Virus record (IMG/VR): IMGVR_UViG_2695420411_000003
DNA: 19,873 nucleotides
Reading direction: 5' to 3' (one strand)
Source: a virus
Taxonomy: Duplodnaviria > Heunggongvirae > Uroviricota > Caudoviricetes
Below the pieces are notes generated by a model. That model did not search any database. It was not told the DNA's origin and saw nothing but the letters and a program-made list of their open reading frames with translations. Shown piece by piece: positions 14,195-19,873 of the stretch (positions are counted from its first letter, which is position 1; each line of letters opens with the position of its first letter). Position numbers and translations under genes: made by a program.

Positions 14195-14359
14195 AAGCAA
14201 CTCCATCTGGCAGGTGAAAATCAGGTTTATTTATATATTTCAATTAATTGCAAACTAGTCTAATGACAGGGAGAAAAAAATATTGTACAGCTGAAAAGAG
14301 AAATAACTTTTAATTATCAATAAATTACCAAACATGCTGCCGCCGCCATGGAAATGCAA

Positions 14360-14395
14360 AAACTAGCCTTTTTCCGCGACGCTCCCGCCCCGTGG
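14360..14395 (-). other. Candidate cosN cohesive-end site
   Basis: Minus-strand sequence ACGGGGCGGGAGCGTCGCGGAAAAAGG resembles remembered lambda cosN ACGGGGCGGCGACCTCGCGGGTTTTCG, and lies about 200 bp upstream of the small terminase start (lambda: about 190 bp). The AT-rich stretch 14207-14330 between them is where cosB/IHF sites would be. Confidence 0.45.
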
Positions 14396-14756
14396 CAGGG
14401 ACCCCCACTGGGAGGACCCGACAGCCTGACAACCGTGACGAGCATCTGAAACAGAGCTTTACATAATGGCATGGGGATAATTCAGAAGGACATCACAGCA
14501 TGCCCACACAAATTAGTGTGAGTGTCCTGTTTCTTACTACGCGCAGGACTGACGAGCATGAGGGGAAAATACGAGAACCGAAATGCCTTATCTTCAGAAA
14601 TGCAGCCGGCATCCGAACTGGACGATATTGTAAATTCACCTAAATACGAGGCATTGCTGTAGTTGAATTGCATTGCTGTATTAGCCTGACAGTGACAGAA
14701 TACGATATTGACTCTGTCACTTGTGAAATGGTCAGAATGGTTAGCAGTTATGGTGA

Positions 14757-14963
14757 TCAGTCAACCACCAGGGAATAATCCTTCGTATTCTTATCGTGCT
14801 TTACTAACGCGGCCTCAATTGCCCTGAATGCTTCCAGAGACACTTGATGTTCTATACATGCAATTACAACATCCGGGTAACCCATCGAAATGGTGCTATT
14901 AAGCATAGTTTTTACACGAACCTGCTCCTGGGAGGGGGCATCAGTGTATTGATCTTTATGCAT
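14757..14963 (-). CDS. Hypothetical small protein (moron), 68 aa
   Basis: [44 protein letters not shown]... with GGAG 8 nt upstream of the ATG; protein-like composition in an AT-rich block. No family recognised. Confidence 0.45.
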
Positions 14964-15165
14964 TTTGTCGCTCCATGCGTTTGCTCTTCACTTACGGCTA
15001 AAAATATAACGTCAAATCACTCAGCATGAAAGAGTTAAAGATTCAGCGCGTTTCCCTTACATAATCTGTCGTTTGTATTCTCTTCAGGCATACCGGAAAG
15101 ACTAGGTATTGTCACACAACCAATACCATCGACAATCGAGATTTATACCTATTCGGTAATGTTTA

Positions 15166-15196
15166 AATATAACAAAACCCCGTAAAAACGAGGTTT
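15166..15196 (-). terminator. Terminator-like hairpin downstream of the GnsA/GnsB-family gene
   Basis: Minus-strand RNA AACCUCG-UUUUUA-CGGGGUU (7-bp stem including one G-U pair) followed by UUUGUUAUAU. Confidence 0.45.
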
Positions 15197-15256
15197 ATGG
15201 GTAATTTGTATTGTTGAATAGCATCTGATGAGAAATTGATGCTAATACTAAACAGA

Positions 15257-15430
15257 CTAGATTAAATCAATCTTGATATCATAGCTTTCAAGACCAGTCA
15301 TTTTTTCCCGTGCAGTAAACTGGATACTGGTAACTTCTTTCCCGGTCTTTTTCTTAAGCTCAATGATTTTTTTTGTTATATATTCAGAAATATCTGCTTC
15401 TGTTTTTGTTTTTAACTCTTCAATGTTCAT
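15257..15430 (-). CDS. GnsA/GnsB-family small protein
   Basis: MMNIEELKTKTEADISEYITKKIIELKKKTGKEVTSIQFTAREKMTGLESYDIKIDLI closely resembles remembered E. coli GnsA; AGAGGA directly upstream. The track N-terminal extension is rejected. Confidence 0.8.
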   Translation of the reverse strand: MNIEELKTKTEADISEYITKKIIELKKKTGKEVTSIQFTAREKMTGLESYDIKIDLI

Positions 15431-15602
15431 CATTTCCTCTTTTAGTCTGTTATGACTTTCCTGGTACACAGTAGTGTCAATTATATGGAGCAAACGTATA
15501 AAAGATAAGATGAAACATCGCAATAATCAACATACGACGGTCTAAATTTCACACAAACAGATAAAGATGATTATCATTTATTATCAATGCATTAGAATCA
15601 AA

Positions 15603-15794
15603 TCAATTCAAGAGTCTCATTGCTGCTTCCAGAATTTCTTCTGAAGTTACATGTCGATCCGCTGCTACATAAATGACTTTATGATCTCCGGTCAGAGATG
15701 GAAACCCTGCAGCCATTACAGTGAGGTGTGTTGTTTCGCCATTTGGATATTCACGCATGATGGTGTTAACTCCGGTCATCACTGGCACTACCAT
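15603..15794 (-). CDS. Hypothetical small protein upstream of the gns gene (possible YnfN/YmcE-like)
   Basis: 63-aa ORF, protein-like composition, co-oriented and adjacent to the gns gene as ymcE/gnsA and ynfN/gnsB are in E. coli K-12 (from memory). Start codon uncertain; no strong RBS found. Confidence 0.35.
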   Translation of the reverse strand: MVVPVMTGVNTIMREYPNGETTHLTVMAAGFPSLTGDHKVIYVAADRHVTSEEILEAAMRLLN

Positions 15795-15878
15795 TGCTGG
15801 TTCAGAGTTAAAAAAAACTATTATTTTTTTTCATAATGTTACCGTAATATGTGAGTATCCATCGACTAGACACTAAGC

Positions 15879-15900
15879 AAAAAAGCTCCCGAAGGAGCCT
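15879..15900 (-). terminator. Intrinsic terminator downstream of the csp gene and small Cys-rich ORF
   Basis: Minus-strand RNA GGAGC-UUCG-GGAGC (5-bp stem, UUCG tetraloop) followed by UUUUUU (plus 15879-15884 aaaaaa); begins 7 nt after the stop of ORF 15907..16161. Confidence 0.55.
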
Positions 15901-15906
15901 TCATTT

Positions 15907-16122
15907 TCACTTTCTTAAATCTAACGATAGACGGCTAACATTTAAGTATTGTGAAATATTATCAAATGTAATCATCATTGATTTACAAAAGATACATTTT
16001 GCCCCGAAAGGATTCCTGTCAGAAACATCAAAAGATGATGTTCTATACTGAGAACCATGGCAACACGGGCATCTAAAGTGAATATGGTTTGTAATATTTT
16101 CTACCTCAAAGTGCCACAACAT
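15907..16122 (-). CDS. Hypothetical small Cys-rich (zinc-ribbon-like) protein
   Basis: Motif HFRCPCCHG...(about 20 aa)...CIFCKS. An ORF of this length is unexpected in AT-rich DNA, and its stop is immediately followed by the terminator. Against it: no clear RBS, and the first ATG (16120-16122) overlaps the csp 3' end by 17 nt; the track start at 16161 is a TTG. Confidence 0.35.
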
Positions 16123-16321
16123 GAACAGCCGCGGGGCCTTTAGGTCCGTTCTCAATACCAAATTCGACTTCCTGATTCTCAGTTAACGTTTTGAAATCGT
16201 TGCTCTGAATAGCTGAGAAATGGACAAACACATCTTTGCTACCATCTTTCGGCGTGATGAAACCAAAACCTTTTTCAGGGTTAAACCATTTCACTAAACC
16301 AGTCATTTTGTTAGACATCAT
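16106..16321 (-). CDS. CspA-family cold-shock protein
   Basis: [69 protein letters not shown] with RNP motifs KGFGFI and VFVHF; true start is probably the second ATG (16316-16318). A roughly 360-bp AT-rich upstream region is consistent with the long 5' UTR typical of csp genes. Confidence 0.9.
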
Positions 16322-16681
16322 TATTACCTTTTGAAGAAGTTAGCCCTTGGGCAGAATGGTCCGAAAAAAAATATCAGAGAGAAAAACCAACAAGGAAATC
16401 TCAAGAGGTACAAATAATAAAATTATAACAATGACTGCTTCAGATAATTTTGTAACAAACCAGAACACCATTAACGCATGATTAACCAACCATAGCAAGG
16501 ATTACTTTTGTAAAGAAAAACACACGAATGAAACAATAGCTTTATTTATTAATAAAACGTGTCATTCTGTCTAATGACCTTTTATCTTACCCTTAAGATT
16601 TCAAGGATTTTGACTCATGGAAGAGTCCTTTTTATTTAAATTTCACATTCAGCGCTAAAAATAATCCGATTTAATATTAAT

Positions 16682-17709
<1,028 letters not shown>

Positions 17710-17822
17710 GGATATTTATCAGGATTTATCGGCTTCAAATCCCCGGATATGTTAAATCTTACCTCACCAGTGATGGGCACTGGCGGGAGGAGGATGTCAA
17801 TCTGATAAACACAGAGGCGACT

Positions 17823-18236
17823 ATGGATTACACAAATCTACCTAAACAAACTTTTGCTGATTTAATCGCACTCAGGCAAGCAGTCGTAGCTCTAATCAAC
17901 TTGTTGCCGGAGAAGGAAAAGGAATTAGTTAAAGCGCTTCTTAACAGAACTGCCGCCGATTTTTCATCATATCCACTGACAGATGACCTTGCGGACCTTC
18001 CTGAATTAATTGCAGCGTCCGCCATTAAGCTTACTGAAGAGATTTACCCTCCTCAAAAATCTTCACAAAATTCCTGCGAGAGTAACTTCAATGCAATAAT
18101 CGTAAAACGCCGCAAACTGCTCATCGCGGCGTTTTTTTTCATCTTCAGAAGGAATCAGCACCGACAATTTTTTATTCAGATCAGCGACGCTGCCCTCCAG
18201 TTTTTCAATGGGCGATTCAATATCATCTTTTTCTGA
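17823..18236 (+). CDS. Hypothetical plus-strand ORF converging on the lysis genes; reality and true 3' end uncertain
   Basis: ATG 17823 with AGAGG 6 nt upstream. The first roughly 80 aa are protein-like; the remaining roughly 57 aa overlap the minus-strand 173-aa gene, look like antisense translation (F/I/R-rich), and contain a plus-strand terminator-like hairpin. Confidence 0.3.
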   Translation: MDYTNLPKQTFADLIALRQAVVALINLLPEKEKELVKALLNRTAADFSSYPLTDDLADLPELIAASAIKLTEEIYPPQKSSQNSCESNFNAIIVKRRKLLIAAFFFIFRRNQHRQFFIQISDAALQFFNGRFNIIFF

Positions 18237-18584
18237 CCGCAATGCCGTCGGTGGCGTCTTCAGAGAACCAGTAATTCTTCCCGGTAGCTTTCCTTTGTAG
18301 GTTATCCACACATTCTGCGCCTCTAAAATTATGGGGCGCTTTTCCGGCGACAGCTCATCCCCTTCACATAACCCGGCAGCAACATCCAGGAAGACCTGTC
18401 TGATGCTCCTTCTGGCTGCTGCCTCATAAAACTCCAGCGCGGCACCTTCAACACGGTCCAGCGAGATGTCCAGGTCAAAAATTTCACCGTCAAAGCGTTT
18501 TTTGTCCCGTAACGCTAAAGTTACCGTAACTTTATTCTCAAAATTGCGGATCCCTTTCACAATCAGTTCATAGTTTTGAGTCAT
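18063..18584 (-). CDS. Hypothetical 173-aa soluble protein encoded between holin and endolysin, translationally coupled to the holin
   Basis: ATG 18582-18584 lies 4 nt after the holin TAA stop, with GGGGAGAG about 7 nt upstream inside the holin 3' end. No transmembrane segment, charged coiled-coil-like C-terminal region. No family recognised. Confidence 0.6.
   Translation of the reverse strand: MTQNYELIVKGIRNFENKVTVTLALRDKKRFDGEIFDLDISLDRVEGAALEFYEAAARRSIRQVFLDVAAGLCEGDELSPEKRPIILEAQNVWITYKGKLPGRITGSLKTPPTALRSEKDDIESPIEKLEGSVADLNKKLSVLIPSEDEKKRRDEQFAAFYDYCIEVTLAGIL
18104..18138 (+). terminator. Terminator-like hairpin, plus-strand polarity, inside the 3' end of the 173-aa gene
   Basis: aacgccgc-aaactgctcatc-gcggcgtt (8-bp stem, 12-nt loop) followed by 8 T on the plus strand; only 4 T follow it on the minus strand. 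Confidence 0.4.
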
Positions 18585-18588
18585 TGAA

Positions 18589-18804
18589 TTACTCTCCCCG
18601 TGCAGCCTTACGCTTGTCTTCTTTAATCTTGAAATAAAGATTTGTCAGATACGTCAGCAGGCCAAACACCAGACTACCCAGCACACCTATTGCCGCCCAC
18701 TGTGAGGGCGTGACTTTATCGAGCAACTGTAAAAACCAGTACCCGGCACTACCTGCTGAGGTGCCATAGGCGACACCCGTTGTTAACTTATCCATGGATT
18801 TCAT
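18589..18804 (-). CDS. S: Class II holin / pinholin (phage 21 S21-like) with dual-start motif
   Basis: [71 protein letters not shown] closely resembles remembered S21; the Met1-Lys-Ser-Met4 start is the antiholin/holin dual-start arrangement. The gene starts 4 nt from the assembly gap, so its RBS and promoter are missing. Confidence 0.85.
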
Positions 18805-18808
18805 AACC

Positions 18809-18818
18809 NNNNNNNNNN
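18809..18818. other. Assembly gap (10 N)
   Basis: Literal run of n in the sequence. Confidence 0.99.
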
Positions 18819-19233
18819 CGTCAGCTCAATCCGCGACGGTGCTGCCGGTGCGGCGATCCGGAACGATACCGATGCCGGATCGCCCTGCTGTCCCCACGCA
18901 TTTACCGCCCGGACCGTCAGCCTGTAGTTCCCCAGCGCCAGTTGCGTGAAGCGGTATGTGGTTTCCGTCGTCCTGGCCGTGCTGACCAGCCGCTCACTGC
19001 CGTCATCCGCTGCCACGGTCAGGCGAAGCATAAAGCTCACGCCCTTCACCACCTTCGGCGTGTCCCATCGCGCCAGCACCTGATATTCCCCGCTGTCTGC
19101 GGTGACTTCGGCGGTCAGATGCTGCACTGCTGGCGGCGTGACACCATTCACCGTGCCGCTCTGGTCACCGTCAAAGTGCGCCCCGTTATCCACGATGGCT
19201 TCTTTCTCCGGTACATGCTGCACGGCAGTGATG
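18819..19233 (-). CDS. J: Internal fragment of a tail tip / host specificity protein (lambda gpJ-like), bounded by gaps
   Basis: Translation ...TYRFTQLALGNYRLTVRAVNAWGQQGDPASVSFRIAAPAAPSRIELT matches a remembered fibronectin-III-like segment of lambda J; truncated at both ends by N runs. Confidence 0.7.
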
Positions 19234-19243
19234 NNNNNNNNNN
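19234..19243. other. Assembly gap (10 N)
   Basis: Literal run of n in the sequence. Confidence 0.99.
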
Positions 19244-19244
19244 T

Positions 19245-19403
19245 GAGCTGCTGCACCATATTCCTGAACAACTGAGTAAACGAGAGAGGTACACCGACAA
19301 ATGGCAGCGACGCACACACTCCCTCTGGCGTCACCGGGCATGGCACGCATCTGCCTTTACGGGGATTTACAACGATTTGGCCGCCGCATCGACCTTCGAG
19401 TGA
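19245..19403 (+). CDS. K: C-terminal fragment of tail assembly protein K, plus-strand copy
   Basis: ELLHHIPEQLSKRERYTDKWQRRTHSLWRHRAWHASAFTGIYNDLAAASTFE matches remembered lambda gpK C-terminus; begins at the gap. Confidence 0.8.
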   Translation, partial: ELLHHIPEQLSKRERYTDKWQRRTHSLWRHRAWHASAFTGIYNDLAAASTFE

Positions 19404-19873
19404 AAACGGGGTCCGAAGCCATCCGGGCGCTGGCCATGCAGAACCCGGCGTTTCGTCAGAAACTGAGCGACGGCTGGTACCAGGTACGCATTGCCGGGCG
19501 TGATGCAGGTGAAACCGAATTGTCTGCCCGTCTTAATGAGCCGCTGGCAAATGGTGCCGTGATCCACATCGTGCCGCGTCTGGCGGGAGCTAAAAGTGGC
19601 GGTGTGTTTCAGGTGGTGCTGGGGGCGGCGCTGATTGCGGTGGCATGGTGGAACCCTGTGGGCTGGCTGGGTGCCGCGGCTGTATCGGGCATGTATGCGG
19701 CAGGGGCCAGTATGATCCTGGGCGGAGTGGCGCAGATGCTGGCACCGAAAGCCAGGACGCCCACGGCAGCAAGTACAGATAACGGCAAACAGAACACCTA
19801 TTTCTCGTCACTGGATAACATGGTTGCCCAGGGCAATGTTCTGCCCGTTCTGTACGGTGAAATGCGCGTGGGG
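19301..19873 (+). CDS. I: Tail assembly protein I (lambda gpI-like), 3' end runs off the window
   Basis: MAATHTLPLASPGMARICLYGDLQRFGRRIDLRVKTG...GKQNTYFSSLDNMVAQGNVLPVLYGEMRVG is near-identical to remembered lambda gpI; GAGAGAGG upstream; overlaps the K 3' end in another frame. Absent from the ORF track because no stop lies inside the window. Confidence 0.88.
   Translation, partial: MAATHTLPLASPGMARICLYGDLQRFGRRIDLRVKTGSEAIRALAMQNPAFRQKLSDGWYQVRIAGRDAGETELSARLNEPLANGAVIHIVPRLAGAKSGGVFQVVLGAALIAVAWWNPVGWLGAAAVSGMYAAGASMILGGVAQMLAPKARTPTAASTDNGKQNTYFSSLDNMVAQGNVLPVLYGEMRVG

What the first reader, a model, noticed from the sequence alone, without database searches (positions are those of the whole stretch)
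17710..18588. Roughly 0.9-kb insertion splitting the holin-endolysin pair: a holin-coupled 173-aa protein converging on a plus-strand ORF
In phage 21-type cassettes the pinholin and SAR endolysin genes are adjacent. Here a 173-aa soluble protein is wedged between them, with its ATG 4 nt after the holin stop and its RBS inside the holin gene, so it is almost certainly made together with the holin from the late transcript. Its 3' end overlaps by about 174 bp a convergent plus-strand ORF (17823..18236) that has its own RBS, and the overlap contains a hairpin plus T8 with plus-strand polarity. Possible readings: (a) a LydB-like lysis regulator (in phage P1 the soluble antiholin gene sits directly downstream of the holin gene); (b) a counterpart of the gene found between holin and lysozyme in E. 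coli K-12 prophage Qin (ydfR, from memory); (c) a two-gene accessory module such as toxin/antitoxin, superinfection exclusion or a lysogen-expressed gene in bor-like orientation. I recognise neither protein, so this is the best candidate in the window for an undescribed function.
Basis: partly seen in the sequence, partly recalled or inferred. Interest (0 to 1): 0.72.

Follow-up and report, generated by a model that had tools for sequence, protein, structure and literature searches.

The report
YdfR gene and reverse-facing moron
Between the holin and lysozyme genes of this E. coli-type prophage lie a catalogued but poorly understood phage gene (ydfR) and a small gene facing the other way with its own start and stop signals; both are common in related prophages, and their odd sizes here come from a 2-base insertion seen only in this assembly.

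Summary
Their sizes (173 aa, 137 aa) and the 174-bp overlap come from a GA insertion at 18078-18082. It is absent from all 13 aligned relatives and from all 315 complete E. coli genomes that carry the segment. In relatives the pair is 183 aa (late strand) and 86 aa (plus strand), overlapping tail-to-tail by 53 nt. The hairpin plus T8 lies about 20 nt after the 86-aa stop, where a terminator belongs.

The 173-aa protein is a YdfR/DUF1327 member (Pfam E 1e-41), 81% identical over residues 1-74 to K-12 YdfR. So reading (b) is correct. K-12 YdfR was recently reported to bind the RNase E catalytic half.

The plus ORF is phrog_2572 (function unknown), a predicted acidic three-helix protein. Homologues at 40-50% identity in Salmonella and metagenome contigs keep the tail-to-tail layout, the ribosome-binding site and the hairpin.

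A promoter-like motif (TTTATC-N17-TATGTT) marks every cassette-bearing locus. It precedes three unrelated cargo ORFs and is missing from all 43 cassette-less loci.

Best reading: a late accessory gene plus a reverse-oriented moron, both frameshifted here. Protein functions remain unknown. Interest is modest.

The parts
18589..18804 (-). Phage-21-type class II (pin)holin with a dual start, M1-K-S-M4.
   Evidence: Pfam PF04971, E 2e-35. RefSeq relatives are annotated essQ/essD.
18592..18597 (-). Shine-Dalgarno (GGAGAG) for ydfR, inside the last codons of the holin gene. The ydfR ATG lies 4 nt after the holin stop.
   Evidence: Read directly from the sequence.
18249..18584 (-). ydfR core, residues 1-112 (the DUF1327 domain).
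   Evidence: Pfam PF07041, 141 bits against a cut-off of 25. It is 81% identical to K-12 YdfR over residues 1-74. The AF2 model shows a three-strand sheet plus a helix, pLDDT 60-80.
18063..18248 (-). C-terminal extension of long-form YdfR, as read in this window (residues 113-173). The last 5 residues (LAGIL) are frameshifted. Relatives continue RRNFVKIFEEGKSLQ and stop at 18031-18033.
   Evidence: In-frame indel variants of 171, 176 and 211 aa keep the C-terminus. The 296-aa class shares this segment at 91% DNA identity.
18078..18082 (.). GAGAG where relatives have GAG. This private 2-bp insertion frameshifts both convergent ORFs.
17725..17753 (+). Promoter-like motif TTTATC-N17-TATGTT, next to the lysozyme start codon and pointing toward ydfR.
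   Evidence: It occurs as one copy on the plus-ORF strand in every cassette-bearing locus, including Salmonella, where the spacer has diverged. It is absent from all 43 cassette-less loci. The match to consensus is weak (7 of 12), and the generic scan did not report it.
17813..17817 (+). Shine-Dalgarno (AGAGG) of the plus ORF, 5 nt before its ATG.
   Evidence: Sequence. Remote homologues have TAAGGA at the equivalent place.
17823..18080 (+). Genuine 86-codon part of the plus ORF (phrog_2572). It is acidic (pI 4.6) and predicted to be a three-helix protein.
   Evidence: PHROG E 1e-53. PGAP annotates it as an 86-aa hypothetical protein in relatives. pN/pS is 0.39 in its frame. Homologues at 40-50% identity were found. 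AF2 pLDDT is 73.
18081..18236 (+). Read-through tail of the plus ORF, created by the GA insertion. It is not part of the gene in relatives.
18104..18139 (+). Hairpin with a 10-bp stem and 12-nt loop, followed by T8. It is the likely intrinsic terminator of the plus ORF and is embedded in ydfR codons (KRR...AAF).
   Evidence: Fold energy -14.6 kcal/mol, z = -2.7. An 8-bp core is conserved in 6 distinct homologues: 86% of cells pair, against 39-68% in slid controls. Covariation is not significant.
17176..17709 (-). SAR-type phage lysozyme (rrrQ-like).
   Evidence: Pfam PF00959, E 5e-25. RefSeq annotation supports it.
16682..17179 (-). Rz-like spanin (DUF2514, rzpQ-like) with an embedded Rz1-like lipoprotein ORF at 16732-17028.
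   Evidence: Pfam PF10721, E 2e-38. K-12 annotates rzpQ/rzoQ at the equivalent place.

Best explanation
The interval between the pinholin and the SAR endolysin holds two nested accessory elements of a Qin-like lambdoid prophage.

(1) ydfR is a late gene translationally coupled to the holin.
- Its DUF1327 N-domain corresponds to the part of K-12 YdfR reported to bind the catalytic half of RNase E and to co-purify with RNA.
- I therefore infer that it modulates RNA turnover late in infection rather than controlling the holin.
- The long form (183 aa in relatives) adds a conserved linker and a helical tail.

(2) A reverse-oriented moron follows.
- It has a weak sigma-70-like promoter abutting the lysozyme start, a 5' UTR of about 60 nt and a Shine-Dalgarno.
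- It encodes an 86-aa acidic three-helix protein (phrog_2572).
- It ends in a hairpin-T8 terminator that lies inside the 3' coding part of long ydfR, so the two genes overlap tail-to-tail by 53 nt.
- I infer that the moron is transcribed on its own, probably in the lysogen, convergently to late transcription. Its RNA is necessarily antisense to the late mRNA between ydfR and R.
- What its protein does is unknown. A small protein-binding adaptor or inhibitor is my guess.

In this assembly a private GA insertion in the overlap frameshifts both genes, giving 173 aa and 137 aa. So here the pair is mutated or mis-sequenced.

What is shown: the anatomy, family membership, distribution and privacy of the indel. 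What is inferred: promoter and terminator activity, timing of expression and both protein functions.
For: Family and context: Pfam DUF1327, holin_2_1, lysozyme and DUF2514. RefSeq relatives are annotated essQ / YdfR family / hypothetical / rrrQ in a Qin-like locus.

Private indel.

Long ydfR is real coding sequence:
- The 183-aa ORF is intact in all class-A relatives.
- Indel variants of 171, 176 and 211 aa preserve the frame.
- A 296-aa class shares the segment and has no opposite-strand ORF.

The plus ORF is real:
- PHROG E 1e-53.
- pN/pS 0.39 against 1.4-3.6 in non-equivalent frames.
- In-frame indels.
- Homologues at 40-50% identity with conserved length, start and Shine-Dalgarno.

Moron features:
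- Presence/absence between homologous flanks, with classes of 78, 352, 537 and 923 nt.
- The same promoter-like motif precedes three unrelated cargo ORFs and is absent from 43 of 43 cassette-less loci.
- The hairpin is conserved.
- G+C is lower, 0.42-0.43 against 0.48-0.52 in flanking genes.
- The Salmonella homologue sits in the bor position.

Viable phages carry the pair: 2H10, PhiR63_1, PhiR5_1 and PhiR12_x.

The RNase E link comes from PMC13232886, together with 81% identity over the interacting residues.
Against: - No transcript data exist for either strand. The promoter motif matches consensus weakly (3/6 and 4/6), and a generic scan found no promoter.
- The wobble-sharing antisense frame gives the same pN/pS as the plus ORF (0.36 against 0.39).
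- Hairpin covariation is anecdotal: 2 double changes, reached by 130 of 500 shuffles. Its stem could be conserved for the KRR...AAF peptide rather than for RNA.
- T8 is present only in the E. coli type.
- One widespread lineage, with 176-aa YdfR, has the plus ORF start mutated to ACG. So the plus ORF is dispensable there.
- ydfR overexpression in K-12 changed few transcripts.
- The YdfR model is of low confidence (pLDDT 56).
- No fold or family match gives a function for either protein.
Confidence: 0.6

Rival explanations
1. YdfR is a lysis regulator, a LydB-like antiholin or lysis-timing factor. It would be made stoichiometrically with the pinholin and act on the holin or the SAR endolysin.
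For: It always sits between S and R, 4 nt after the holin stop, with its Shine-Dalgarno in the holin gene. A genetic screen cited in PMC13232886 linked ydfR to envelope integrity.
Against: - S21-type cassettes exist without it, for example DLP12 essD-rrrD, which abut directly.
- The holin has its own dual-start antiholin motif.
- No lysis-category PHROG or Pfam family matches it.
- The protein is soluble and acidic, with no membrane segment.
- K-12 YdfR binds cytoplasmic RNase E.
- A direct alignment with P1 LydB was not run.
Confidence: 0.15
2. The convergent pair is a two-protein module of the toxin/antitoxin or effector/immunity kind. The 86-aa protein would neutralise the helical C-terminal tail of long YdfR.
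For: The plus ORF is always found tail-to-tail with a late-strand ORF ending in E.KRRDE..AA(F/L)Y...RN(F/L), across 40-50% divergence.
Against: - Similarity among the partners is confined to the stretch that physically overlaps the hairpin and the plus ORF 3' end. Elsewhere they are unrelated.
- The 296-aa YdfR has the segment but no plus ORF.
- The 176-aa lineage lost the plus ORF start codon but keeps YdfR.
- Both proteins are acidic.
- The genes are convergent, not in an operon.
- Neither protein matches PADLOC or Pfam toxin-antitoxin families.
Confidence: 0.08
3. The plus ORF is not a gene. It would be a chance open frame, an antisense shadow or leftover sequence, and only ydfR-long is functional.
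For: The family is narrow, almost entirely E. coli and Salmonella. It has no Pfam domain. The wobble-sharing antisense frame scores equally well. The start codon is lost in one lineage. The phage records for 2H10 and PhiR63_1 annotate only the long ydfR there.
Against: - Most of the ORF (17823-18030) lies outside ydfR, so no opposite-strand gene explains its conservation.
- Length, start codon, Shine-Dalgarno and helix pattern are kept at 40-50% identity in three clades and three different genomic contexts. HMMER E-values are 1e-8 to 1e-10 against 1.8 billion proteins.
- Indels are in frame.
Confidence: 0.1
4. The cassette acts mainly at the RNA level. Its plus-strand transcript would be an antisense regulator of the late S-ydfR-R mRNA, in the manner of lambda OOP on cII, damping leaky lysis-gene expression in lysogens. 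The ORFs would be secondary.
For: Transcription is convergent, with at least 53 nt of overlap plus the terminator inside ydfR. The same promoter-like motif precedes three unrelated cargo ORFs at the same site, which suggests the position and orientation matter more than the protein.
Against: The ORFs are conserved as proteins within each family. The Stx2-86-type cassette does not overlap ydfR at all. The Salmonella homologue lies outside the S-R interval. No Rfam family matches.
Confidence: 0.07

Closest known systems
YdfR of E. coli K-12 cryptic prophage Qin (DUF1327, PF07041; P76160)
   Same: It occupies the same position between essQ and rrrQ in a Qin-like gene neighbourhood (gnsB, cspI-like, ynfQ-like, rzpQ). 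It is 81% identical over residues 1-74, the part reported to bind RNase E 1-597.
   Different: K-12 YdfR is 103 aa and abuts rrrQ, with no opposite-strand cassette. The window's form belongs to the 183-aa class, which adds a conserved linker and a helical tail, and it is further frameshifted to 173 aa.
Lambda bor / DLP12 borD-type morons (a reverse-oriented, independently transcribed gene next to the lysis genes)
   Same: The plus ORF runs opposite to late transcription. It has its own ribosome-binding site and a terminator-like hairpin, shows presence/absence polymorphism and has lower G+C. Its Salmonella homologues sit after Rz, where bor sits.
   Different: There is no sequence relation to Bor. 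The protein has no signal peptide or lipobox and is an acidic three-helix protein. In E. coli the cassette lies inside the lysis operon, between ydfR and R, and overlaps a late gene tail-to-tail. Expression in lysogens is untested.
phrog_2572 / RefSeq WP_001306174.1 and WP_001557934.1 (86-aa hypothetical protein)
   Same: The first 86 codons of the window's plus ORF are 98-100% identical to this family.
   Different: In the window the stop codon is lost through the GA insertion, and 51 spurious residues are appended.
Phage 21 / DLP12 pinholin-SAR endolysin-Rz/Rz1 cassette
   Same: It has a PF04971 holin with a dual start, a lysozyme with an N-terminal signal-anchor-release-like segment, and an Rz with an embedded Rz1.
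   Different: DLP12 has S and R abutting. Here 879 nt carrying two extra genes separate them.
Lambda OOP antisense RNA overlapping the 3' end of cII (recalled from memory)
   Same: A short convergent transcript would overlap the 3' end of a phage gene by about 50 nt.
   Different: OOP is non-coding, whereas this transcript carries a conserved ORF. No RNA-level effect has been shown here.

Membership tests
YdfR / DUF1327 (PF07041) | Match to the Pfam model above its gathering score. | tested here: met
   141.3 bits against a cut-off of 25, covering residues 1-112 and profile positions 1-92 of 93.
YdfR / DUF1327 (PF07041) | Located between a class II holin and a lysozyme in a lambdoid lysis cassette. 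| tested here: met
   All 88 loci examined have a holin upstream, and a lysozyme downstream where the locus extends that far. K-12 shows the same order.
YdfR / DUF1327 (PF07041) | Binds the N-terminal catalytic half of RNase E, as reported for K-12 YdfR residues 1-72. | not testable with these tools
   Only sequence conservation could be checked: 81% identity over residues 1-74.
Phage-21-type pinholin / SAR endolysin cassette | PF04971 holin with a dual start, a phage lysozyme with an N-terminal SAR-like segment, and Rz with an embedded Rz1. | tested here: met
   Pfam hits. The holin starts MKSM, the lysozyme N-terminus is [22 protein letters not shown], and an Rz1-like ORF with an LTSC lipobox is embedded. 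Membrane behaviour was not tested.
Moron (independent transcription unit inserted between genes that are adjacent in related phages) | Present or absent between otherwise homologous flanks. | tested here: met
   The distance from the ydfR core to R is 78 nt with no cassette and 352, 537, 619 or 923 nt with different cassettes.
Moron (independent transcription unit inserted between genes that are adjacent in related phages) | Has its own promoter. | tested here: inconclusive
   TTTATC-N17-TATGTT is conserved in all cassette-bearing loci, including a Salmonella version with a diverged spacer, and is absent from 43 of 43 cassette-less loci. It matches consensus at only 7 of 12 positions, and the generic scan did not report it.
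Moron (independent transcription unit inserted between genes that are adjacent in related phages) | Has its own terminator. | tested here: inconclusive
   A hairpin plus T8 lies about 20 nt after the stop in relatives. The stem core is conserved, but covariation is not significant, and the T-run is weak or absent in remote homologues.
Moron (independent transcription unit inserted between genes that are adjacent in related phages) | Expressed from the repressed prophage. | not testable with these tools
   No transcript data were available.
Moron (independent transcription unit inserted between genes that are adjacent in related phages) | Base composition differs from the neighbouring genes. 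| tested here: met
   G+C is 0.42-0.43 for the cassette against 0.48-0.52 for the holin, the ydfR core and the lysozyme. The difference is modest.
LydB-like antiholin / lysis regulator | Sequence similarity to an annotated lysis-regulator family. | tested here: not met
   Pfam gives only DUF1327. All seven PHROG hits are of unknown function. A direct alignment with P1 LydB was not run.
Type II toxin-antitoxin or defence module | Match to known toxin, antitoxin or defence protein families. | tested here: not met
   PADLOC, Pfam and NCBIfam give no hits for either protein.
Type II toxin-antitoxin or defence module | Co-directional operon and obligate co-occurrence of the two proteins. | tested here: not met
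   The genes are convergent. The 296-aa YdfR class lacks the plus ORF, and the 176-aa lineage has the plus ORF ATG changed to ACG.

The most novel reading that the evidence does not exclude
The ydfR-R junction of S21-type lysis cassettes is a dedicated docking site where a conserved outward-facing promoter drives interchangeable cargo genes convergently into the late operon. The resulting sense/antisense overlap, possibly processed through the RNase E that YdfR itself binds, would form a switch. That switch would silence leaky holin/endolysin expression in lysogens and be overridden by Q-antiterminated late transcription.
Probability: 0.1. Interest if true: 0.6.

Novelty: new member of a known kind. 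Interest (0 to 1): 0.33.

Why it matters
The finding corrects a tempting mis-reading. The long overlap and the odd ORF sizes are a private frameshift, not biology.

It also shows that RefSeq's habit of calling the 183-aa ydfR a truncated pseudogene is probably an annotation artefact. The frame is kept through in-frame indels, and it is shared with a 296-aa form.

In the sample examined, about 45% of YdfR-containing pinholin cassettes (35 of 78) carry a reverse-facing small gene inside the lysis operon. Each sits behind the same promoter-like motif, with three unrelated cargos. That is a tidy, testable example of moron exchange at a fixed site.

Together with the recent RNase E-YdfR report, it gives two cheap experimental handles on very common E. 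coli and Shigella prophage genes that have no assigned function.

Tried and rejected
- **Function by homology.** Pfam, NCBIfam, PADLOC and a PDB sequence search gave nothing for the plus ORF. For YdfR they gave only DUF1327, apart from sub-threshold hits such as PARP1 at E 0.05.
- **'DUF1823' label.** The label given to the plus ORF in the PhiR phage records is a sub-threshold match: E 0.11, 13 bits against a cut-off of 25. I rejected it.
- **Fold search, plus ORF.** Foldseek of the three-helix model against the PDB found nothing below E 2.8. The AFDB library was unavailable.
- **Exhaustive HMMER search.** It hit a 975-aa TPR/CHAT-like protein in 8 stretches (P0139). I judged this a repeat-helix resemblance, not homology.
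- **Relatedness of the three cargo ORF families.** BLASTP and hhalign found none.
- **dN/dS on the ydfR extension.** It did not discriminate between frames (0.70 against 0.58-1.06), because the region is mosaic and rich in indels.
- **Hairpin covariation.** Not significant.
- **Rfam.** No family matched.
- **Literature.** Searches for DUF1327, the PhiR phages, and morons or antisense RNA in lysis cassettes found nothing specific beyond PMC13232886.
Full report
**1. What is in the sequence.**

On the minus strand, the window from 16682 to 18804 is a phage-21-type lysis cassette:
- a class II holin at 18589-18804 (PF04971, E 2e-35), with a dual start MKSM;
- a 173-aa ORF at 18063-18584;
- a lysozyme at 17176-17709 (PF00959) with a SAR-like N-terminus;
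- an Rz-like gene at 16682-17179 (DUF2514) with an embedded Rz1-like ORF.

The 173-aa ORF starts 4 nt after the holin stop. Its GGAGAG Shine-Dalgarno lies inside the holin gene. The plus-strand ORF 17823-18236 (137 aa) has AGAGG 5 nt before its ATG and overlaps the 173-aa ORF by 174 bp. The overlap holds a 10-bp-stem hairpin followed by T8 (18104-18139; -14.6 kcal/mol, z = -2.7).

**2. The sizes and the long overlap are private to this assembly.**

I aligned the region with E. coli PE164 and HS, phages PhiR63_1 and PhiR5_1, IMG/VR contigs and further E. coli genomes. The window has GAGAG at 18078-18082 where all 13 others have GAG.
- None of the 315 complete E. coli genomes carrying the segment has the extra GA. 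Their best identity is 97.2%, which is exactly the 2-nt gap.
- The exact 173-aa protein is on record only on this contig. The contig is the whole window: JRRU01000009.1 of GCA_001413535.1.
- Without the insertion the late-strand ORF is 183 aa, ending ...YDYCIEVTRRNFVKIFEEGKSLQ with its stop at 18031-18033.
- The plus ORF is then 86 aa, ending ...NSCE with TAA at 18083-18085.
- The two overlap tail-to-tail by 53 nt, and the hairpin-T8 lies about 20 nt after the plus ORF stop.
- The 51 extra residues of the window's plus ORF are a basic, F/I/R-rich read-through.

I cannot tell whether the insertion is a real mutation or a sequencing error. The contig also contains two runs of ten N.

**3. The late-strand protein is YdfR.**

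- It matches DUF1327 at 141 bits against a cut-off of 25, over residues 1-112.
- RefSeq relatives sit in a Qin-like locus: essQ/essD, YdfR family, rrrQ, rzpQ, cspI, ynfQ, gnsB.
- It is 81% identical to K-12 YdfR over residues 1-74.

The family comes in discrete length classes that share the core and differ after ...SLKTPP: 103, 114, 116, 171, 176, 183, 211, 243, 268 and 296 aa.

The window's extension is genuine coding sequence, for three reasons:
- The 183-aa frame is intact in every class-A relative.
- Three independent indels (-36, -21 and +84 nt) preserve the frame and the C-terminus.
- The 296-aa class shares the segment at 91% DNA identity as far as window ~18094, continues into another domain, and has no opposite-strand gene.

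PGAP labels the gene 'incomplete, missing C-terminus'. That looks like an artefact of comparing it with short-form references.

**4. What is published on YdfR.**

Only one informative paper was found, PMC13232886 (RNA Biol 2026).
- K-12 YdfR was recovered in a two-hybrid screen.
- Residues 1-72 suffice for interaction with RNase E 1-597.
- Strep-YdfR co-purifies RNase E 1-598 and DNase-resistant nucleic acid.
- Overexpression changes few transcripts.
- The authors cite a screen that linked ydfR to envelope integrity.

This is the only functional lead, and I adopt it as an inference for the window's protein.

**5. The plus ORF is a real, catalogued, uncharacterised gene.**

- Its first 86 codons match phrog_2572 (E 1e-53). 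PGAP annotates them as an 86-aa hypothetical protein.
- In the 207 nt that no ydfR codon overlaps, pN/pS is 0.39 in its frame, against 1.4-3.6 in four other frames. The wobble-sharing antisense frame scores the same (0.36), as expected.
- Variants differ by in-frame indels.
- An exhaustive HMMER search and a profile search found 89-93-aa homologues at 40-50% identity in Salmonella and metagenome contigs.
- AF2 predicts three helices (pLDDT 73). The protein is acidic (pI 4.6).
- No fold, Pfam, NCBIfam, PADLOC or PDB match gives a function.

**6. Context of the remote homologues.**

In every case the plus ORF lies tail-to-tail with a late-strand ORF, overlapping it by 59 nt:
- a 73-aa ORF that starts at the Rz stop, in Salmonella prophages. 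There the cassette lies between Rz and the small terminase gene, which is the position of bor;
- a 144-aa ORF;
- a 243-aa DUF1327 fusion.

These partners resemble each other and the window's extension only across the hairpin and the overlap, in the motif E.KRRDE..AA(F/L)Y...RN(F/L). BLASTP gives E 2e-4, 0.25 and no hit.

The hairpin core of 8 bp is kept in six distinct sequences, including one G-C to A-U double change. Cells pair at 86%, against 39-68% in slid controls. Covariation is not significant, because 130 of 500 shuffles reach it. The T-run is strong only in the E. coli type.

The conserved mobile unit is therefore the plus-strand cassette together with the stretch of opposite-strand reading frame it overlaps. 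It is not a pair of co-evolving proteins.

**7. A fixed docking site with interchangeable cargo.**

Among 78 IMG/VR loci with a YdfR core and a lysozyme in view:
- 43 have a 116-aa YdfR and no cassette;
- 28 have a 114-aa YdfR plus a 90-aa plus ORF (phrog_2411);
- 5 have the window's type;
- 2 have the Stx2-phage-86 type, with a 268-aa YdfR and a 104-aa plus ORF (phrog_1853).

The three plus ORFs are unrelated by BLASTP and hhalign.

All cassette-bearing loci share TTTATC-N17-TAT(G/T)(G/T)T next to the lysozyme start, on the plus-ORF strand. In the window this is 17725-17753. The Salmonella version keeps the hexamers and the spacing, although its spacer has diverged. All 43 cassette-less loci lack the motif. 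It is a weak consensus match, and a generic scan did not report it. The pattern of conserved hexamers around a variable spacer is what a promoter would show.

Cassette G+C is 0.42-0.43, against 0.48-0.52 in the flanking genes. The window-type insert occurs in 281-364 of 5426 complete E. coli genomes and in 8 phage records, namely 2H10, PhiR63_1, PhiR5_1 and PhiR12_x.

**8. Interpretation.**

Best reading (confidence about 0.6): ydfR is a late accessory gene coupled to the holin, and I infer that it acts on RNA or RNase E. Nested against it is a reverse-oriented moron encoding a small acidic helical protein of unknown role. Both are frameshifted in this assembly.

Rivals:
- A lysis regulator (about 0.15). 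Position and coupling favour it. Against it are cassettes without ydfR (DLP12), the holin's own dual start, and the absence of any match to a lysis family.
- A two-protein module (about 0.08). Against it are the partner similarity confined to the overlap, the 296-aa class without a plus ORF, the 176-aa lineage whose plus ORF start is ACG, and the fact that both proteins are acidic.
- A non-coding plus ORF (about 0.1).
- A purely antisense-RNA role (about 0.07).

**9. Verdict.**

- Reading (b) is correct.
- The bor-like part of reading (c) is the best account of the plus ORF.
- Reading (a) is unsupported.
- The striking 174-bp overlap is not a property of the element.

Both proteins belong to catalogued families of unknown function. 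This is a new member of known kinds, of modest interest. The recurring promoter-plus-cargo site inside the lysis operon and the RNase E lead are the parts worth an experiment.

Noticed in passing
window 18810-18819 and 19215-19224, with flanks 18801-19873: Two runs of exactly ten N lie immediately upstream of the holin start. They are followed by fragments of lambda J-like and other tail genes on both strands. The contig end looks like a scaffold of repeated prophage pieces. The natural upstream region of the lysis cassette (the Q / late-promoter region) is therefore missing.
   Followed up: partly
L001, L002, L089-L093 (RefSeq E. coli genomes): PGAP annotates the intact 183-aa (or 176- or 211-aa) ydfR as a pseudogene ('incomplete; missing C-terminus') that stops at residue 112. 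The phage records for 2H10 and PhiR63_1 do the opposite: they annotate the long ydfR and omit the 86-aa plus ORF.
   Followed up: yes
L091 (E. coli VL46); P0002, P0022, P0026: The lineage with the 176-aa YdfR (an in-frame 21-nt deletion) is found in many E. coli and Shigella contigs. In it the plus ORF start codon is changed from ATG to ACG, and no plus ORF is annotated.
   Followed up: partly
window 17828-18025 (-): A 65-aa antisense ORF shares third-codon positions with the plus ORF and so shows the same pN/pS (0.36 against 0.39). It is most likely a shadow ORF.
   Followed up: partly
window 17710-17745; L005, L100: The sequence GGATATTTATCAGGATTTATCGG next to the lysozyme ATG contains a direct repeat, ATTTATC(A)GG. 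It is conserved even in loci where no lysozyme is seen beside the cassette, such as L100 and the Salmonella loci. The cassette therefore seems to have carried a piece of the R upstream region with it.
   Followed up: partly
P0139 (975 aa; found): The N-terminal helix-turn of the 86-aa protein (ADLIALRQAVVALINLLPEKE) matches eight tandem TPR-like repeats of a large CHAT/TPR-type protein at E 1.6e-10. This is probably a repeat-helix resemblance rather than homology.
   Followed up: no
window 14207-16681; L088 3553-5117: Downstream of Rz lies the Qin-type accessory cluster: a cold-shock-domain gene, a YmcF/YnfQ-like gene, a GnsAB-family gene and small unannotated ORFs. After it come a DUF1441 protein and a full-length GpA-type large terminase.
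   Followed up: no
L104/L105 2501-3391 (296-aa YdfR class); L006 (268-aa class): Long YdfR forms carry an additional C-terminal domain of about 120 aa (phrog_26186 and phrog_36381 segments), with no Pfam match. In the 296-aa class, 15 nt that form one arm of the hairpin are missing.
   Followed up: partly
window 17675-17690 (+): A terminator-like hairpin with a T-run lies on the plus strand inside the 5' end of the lysozyme coding region. It is a consensus match only, at the frequency expected by chance.
   Followed up: no
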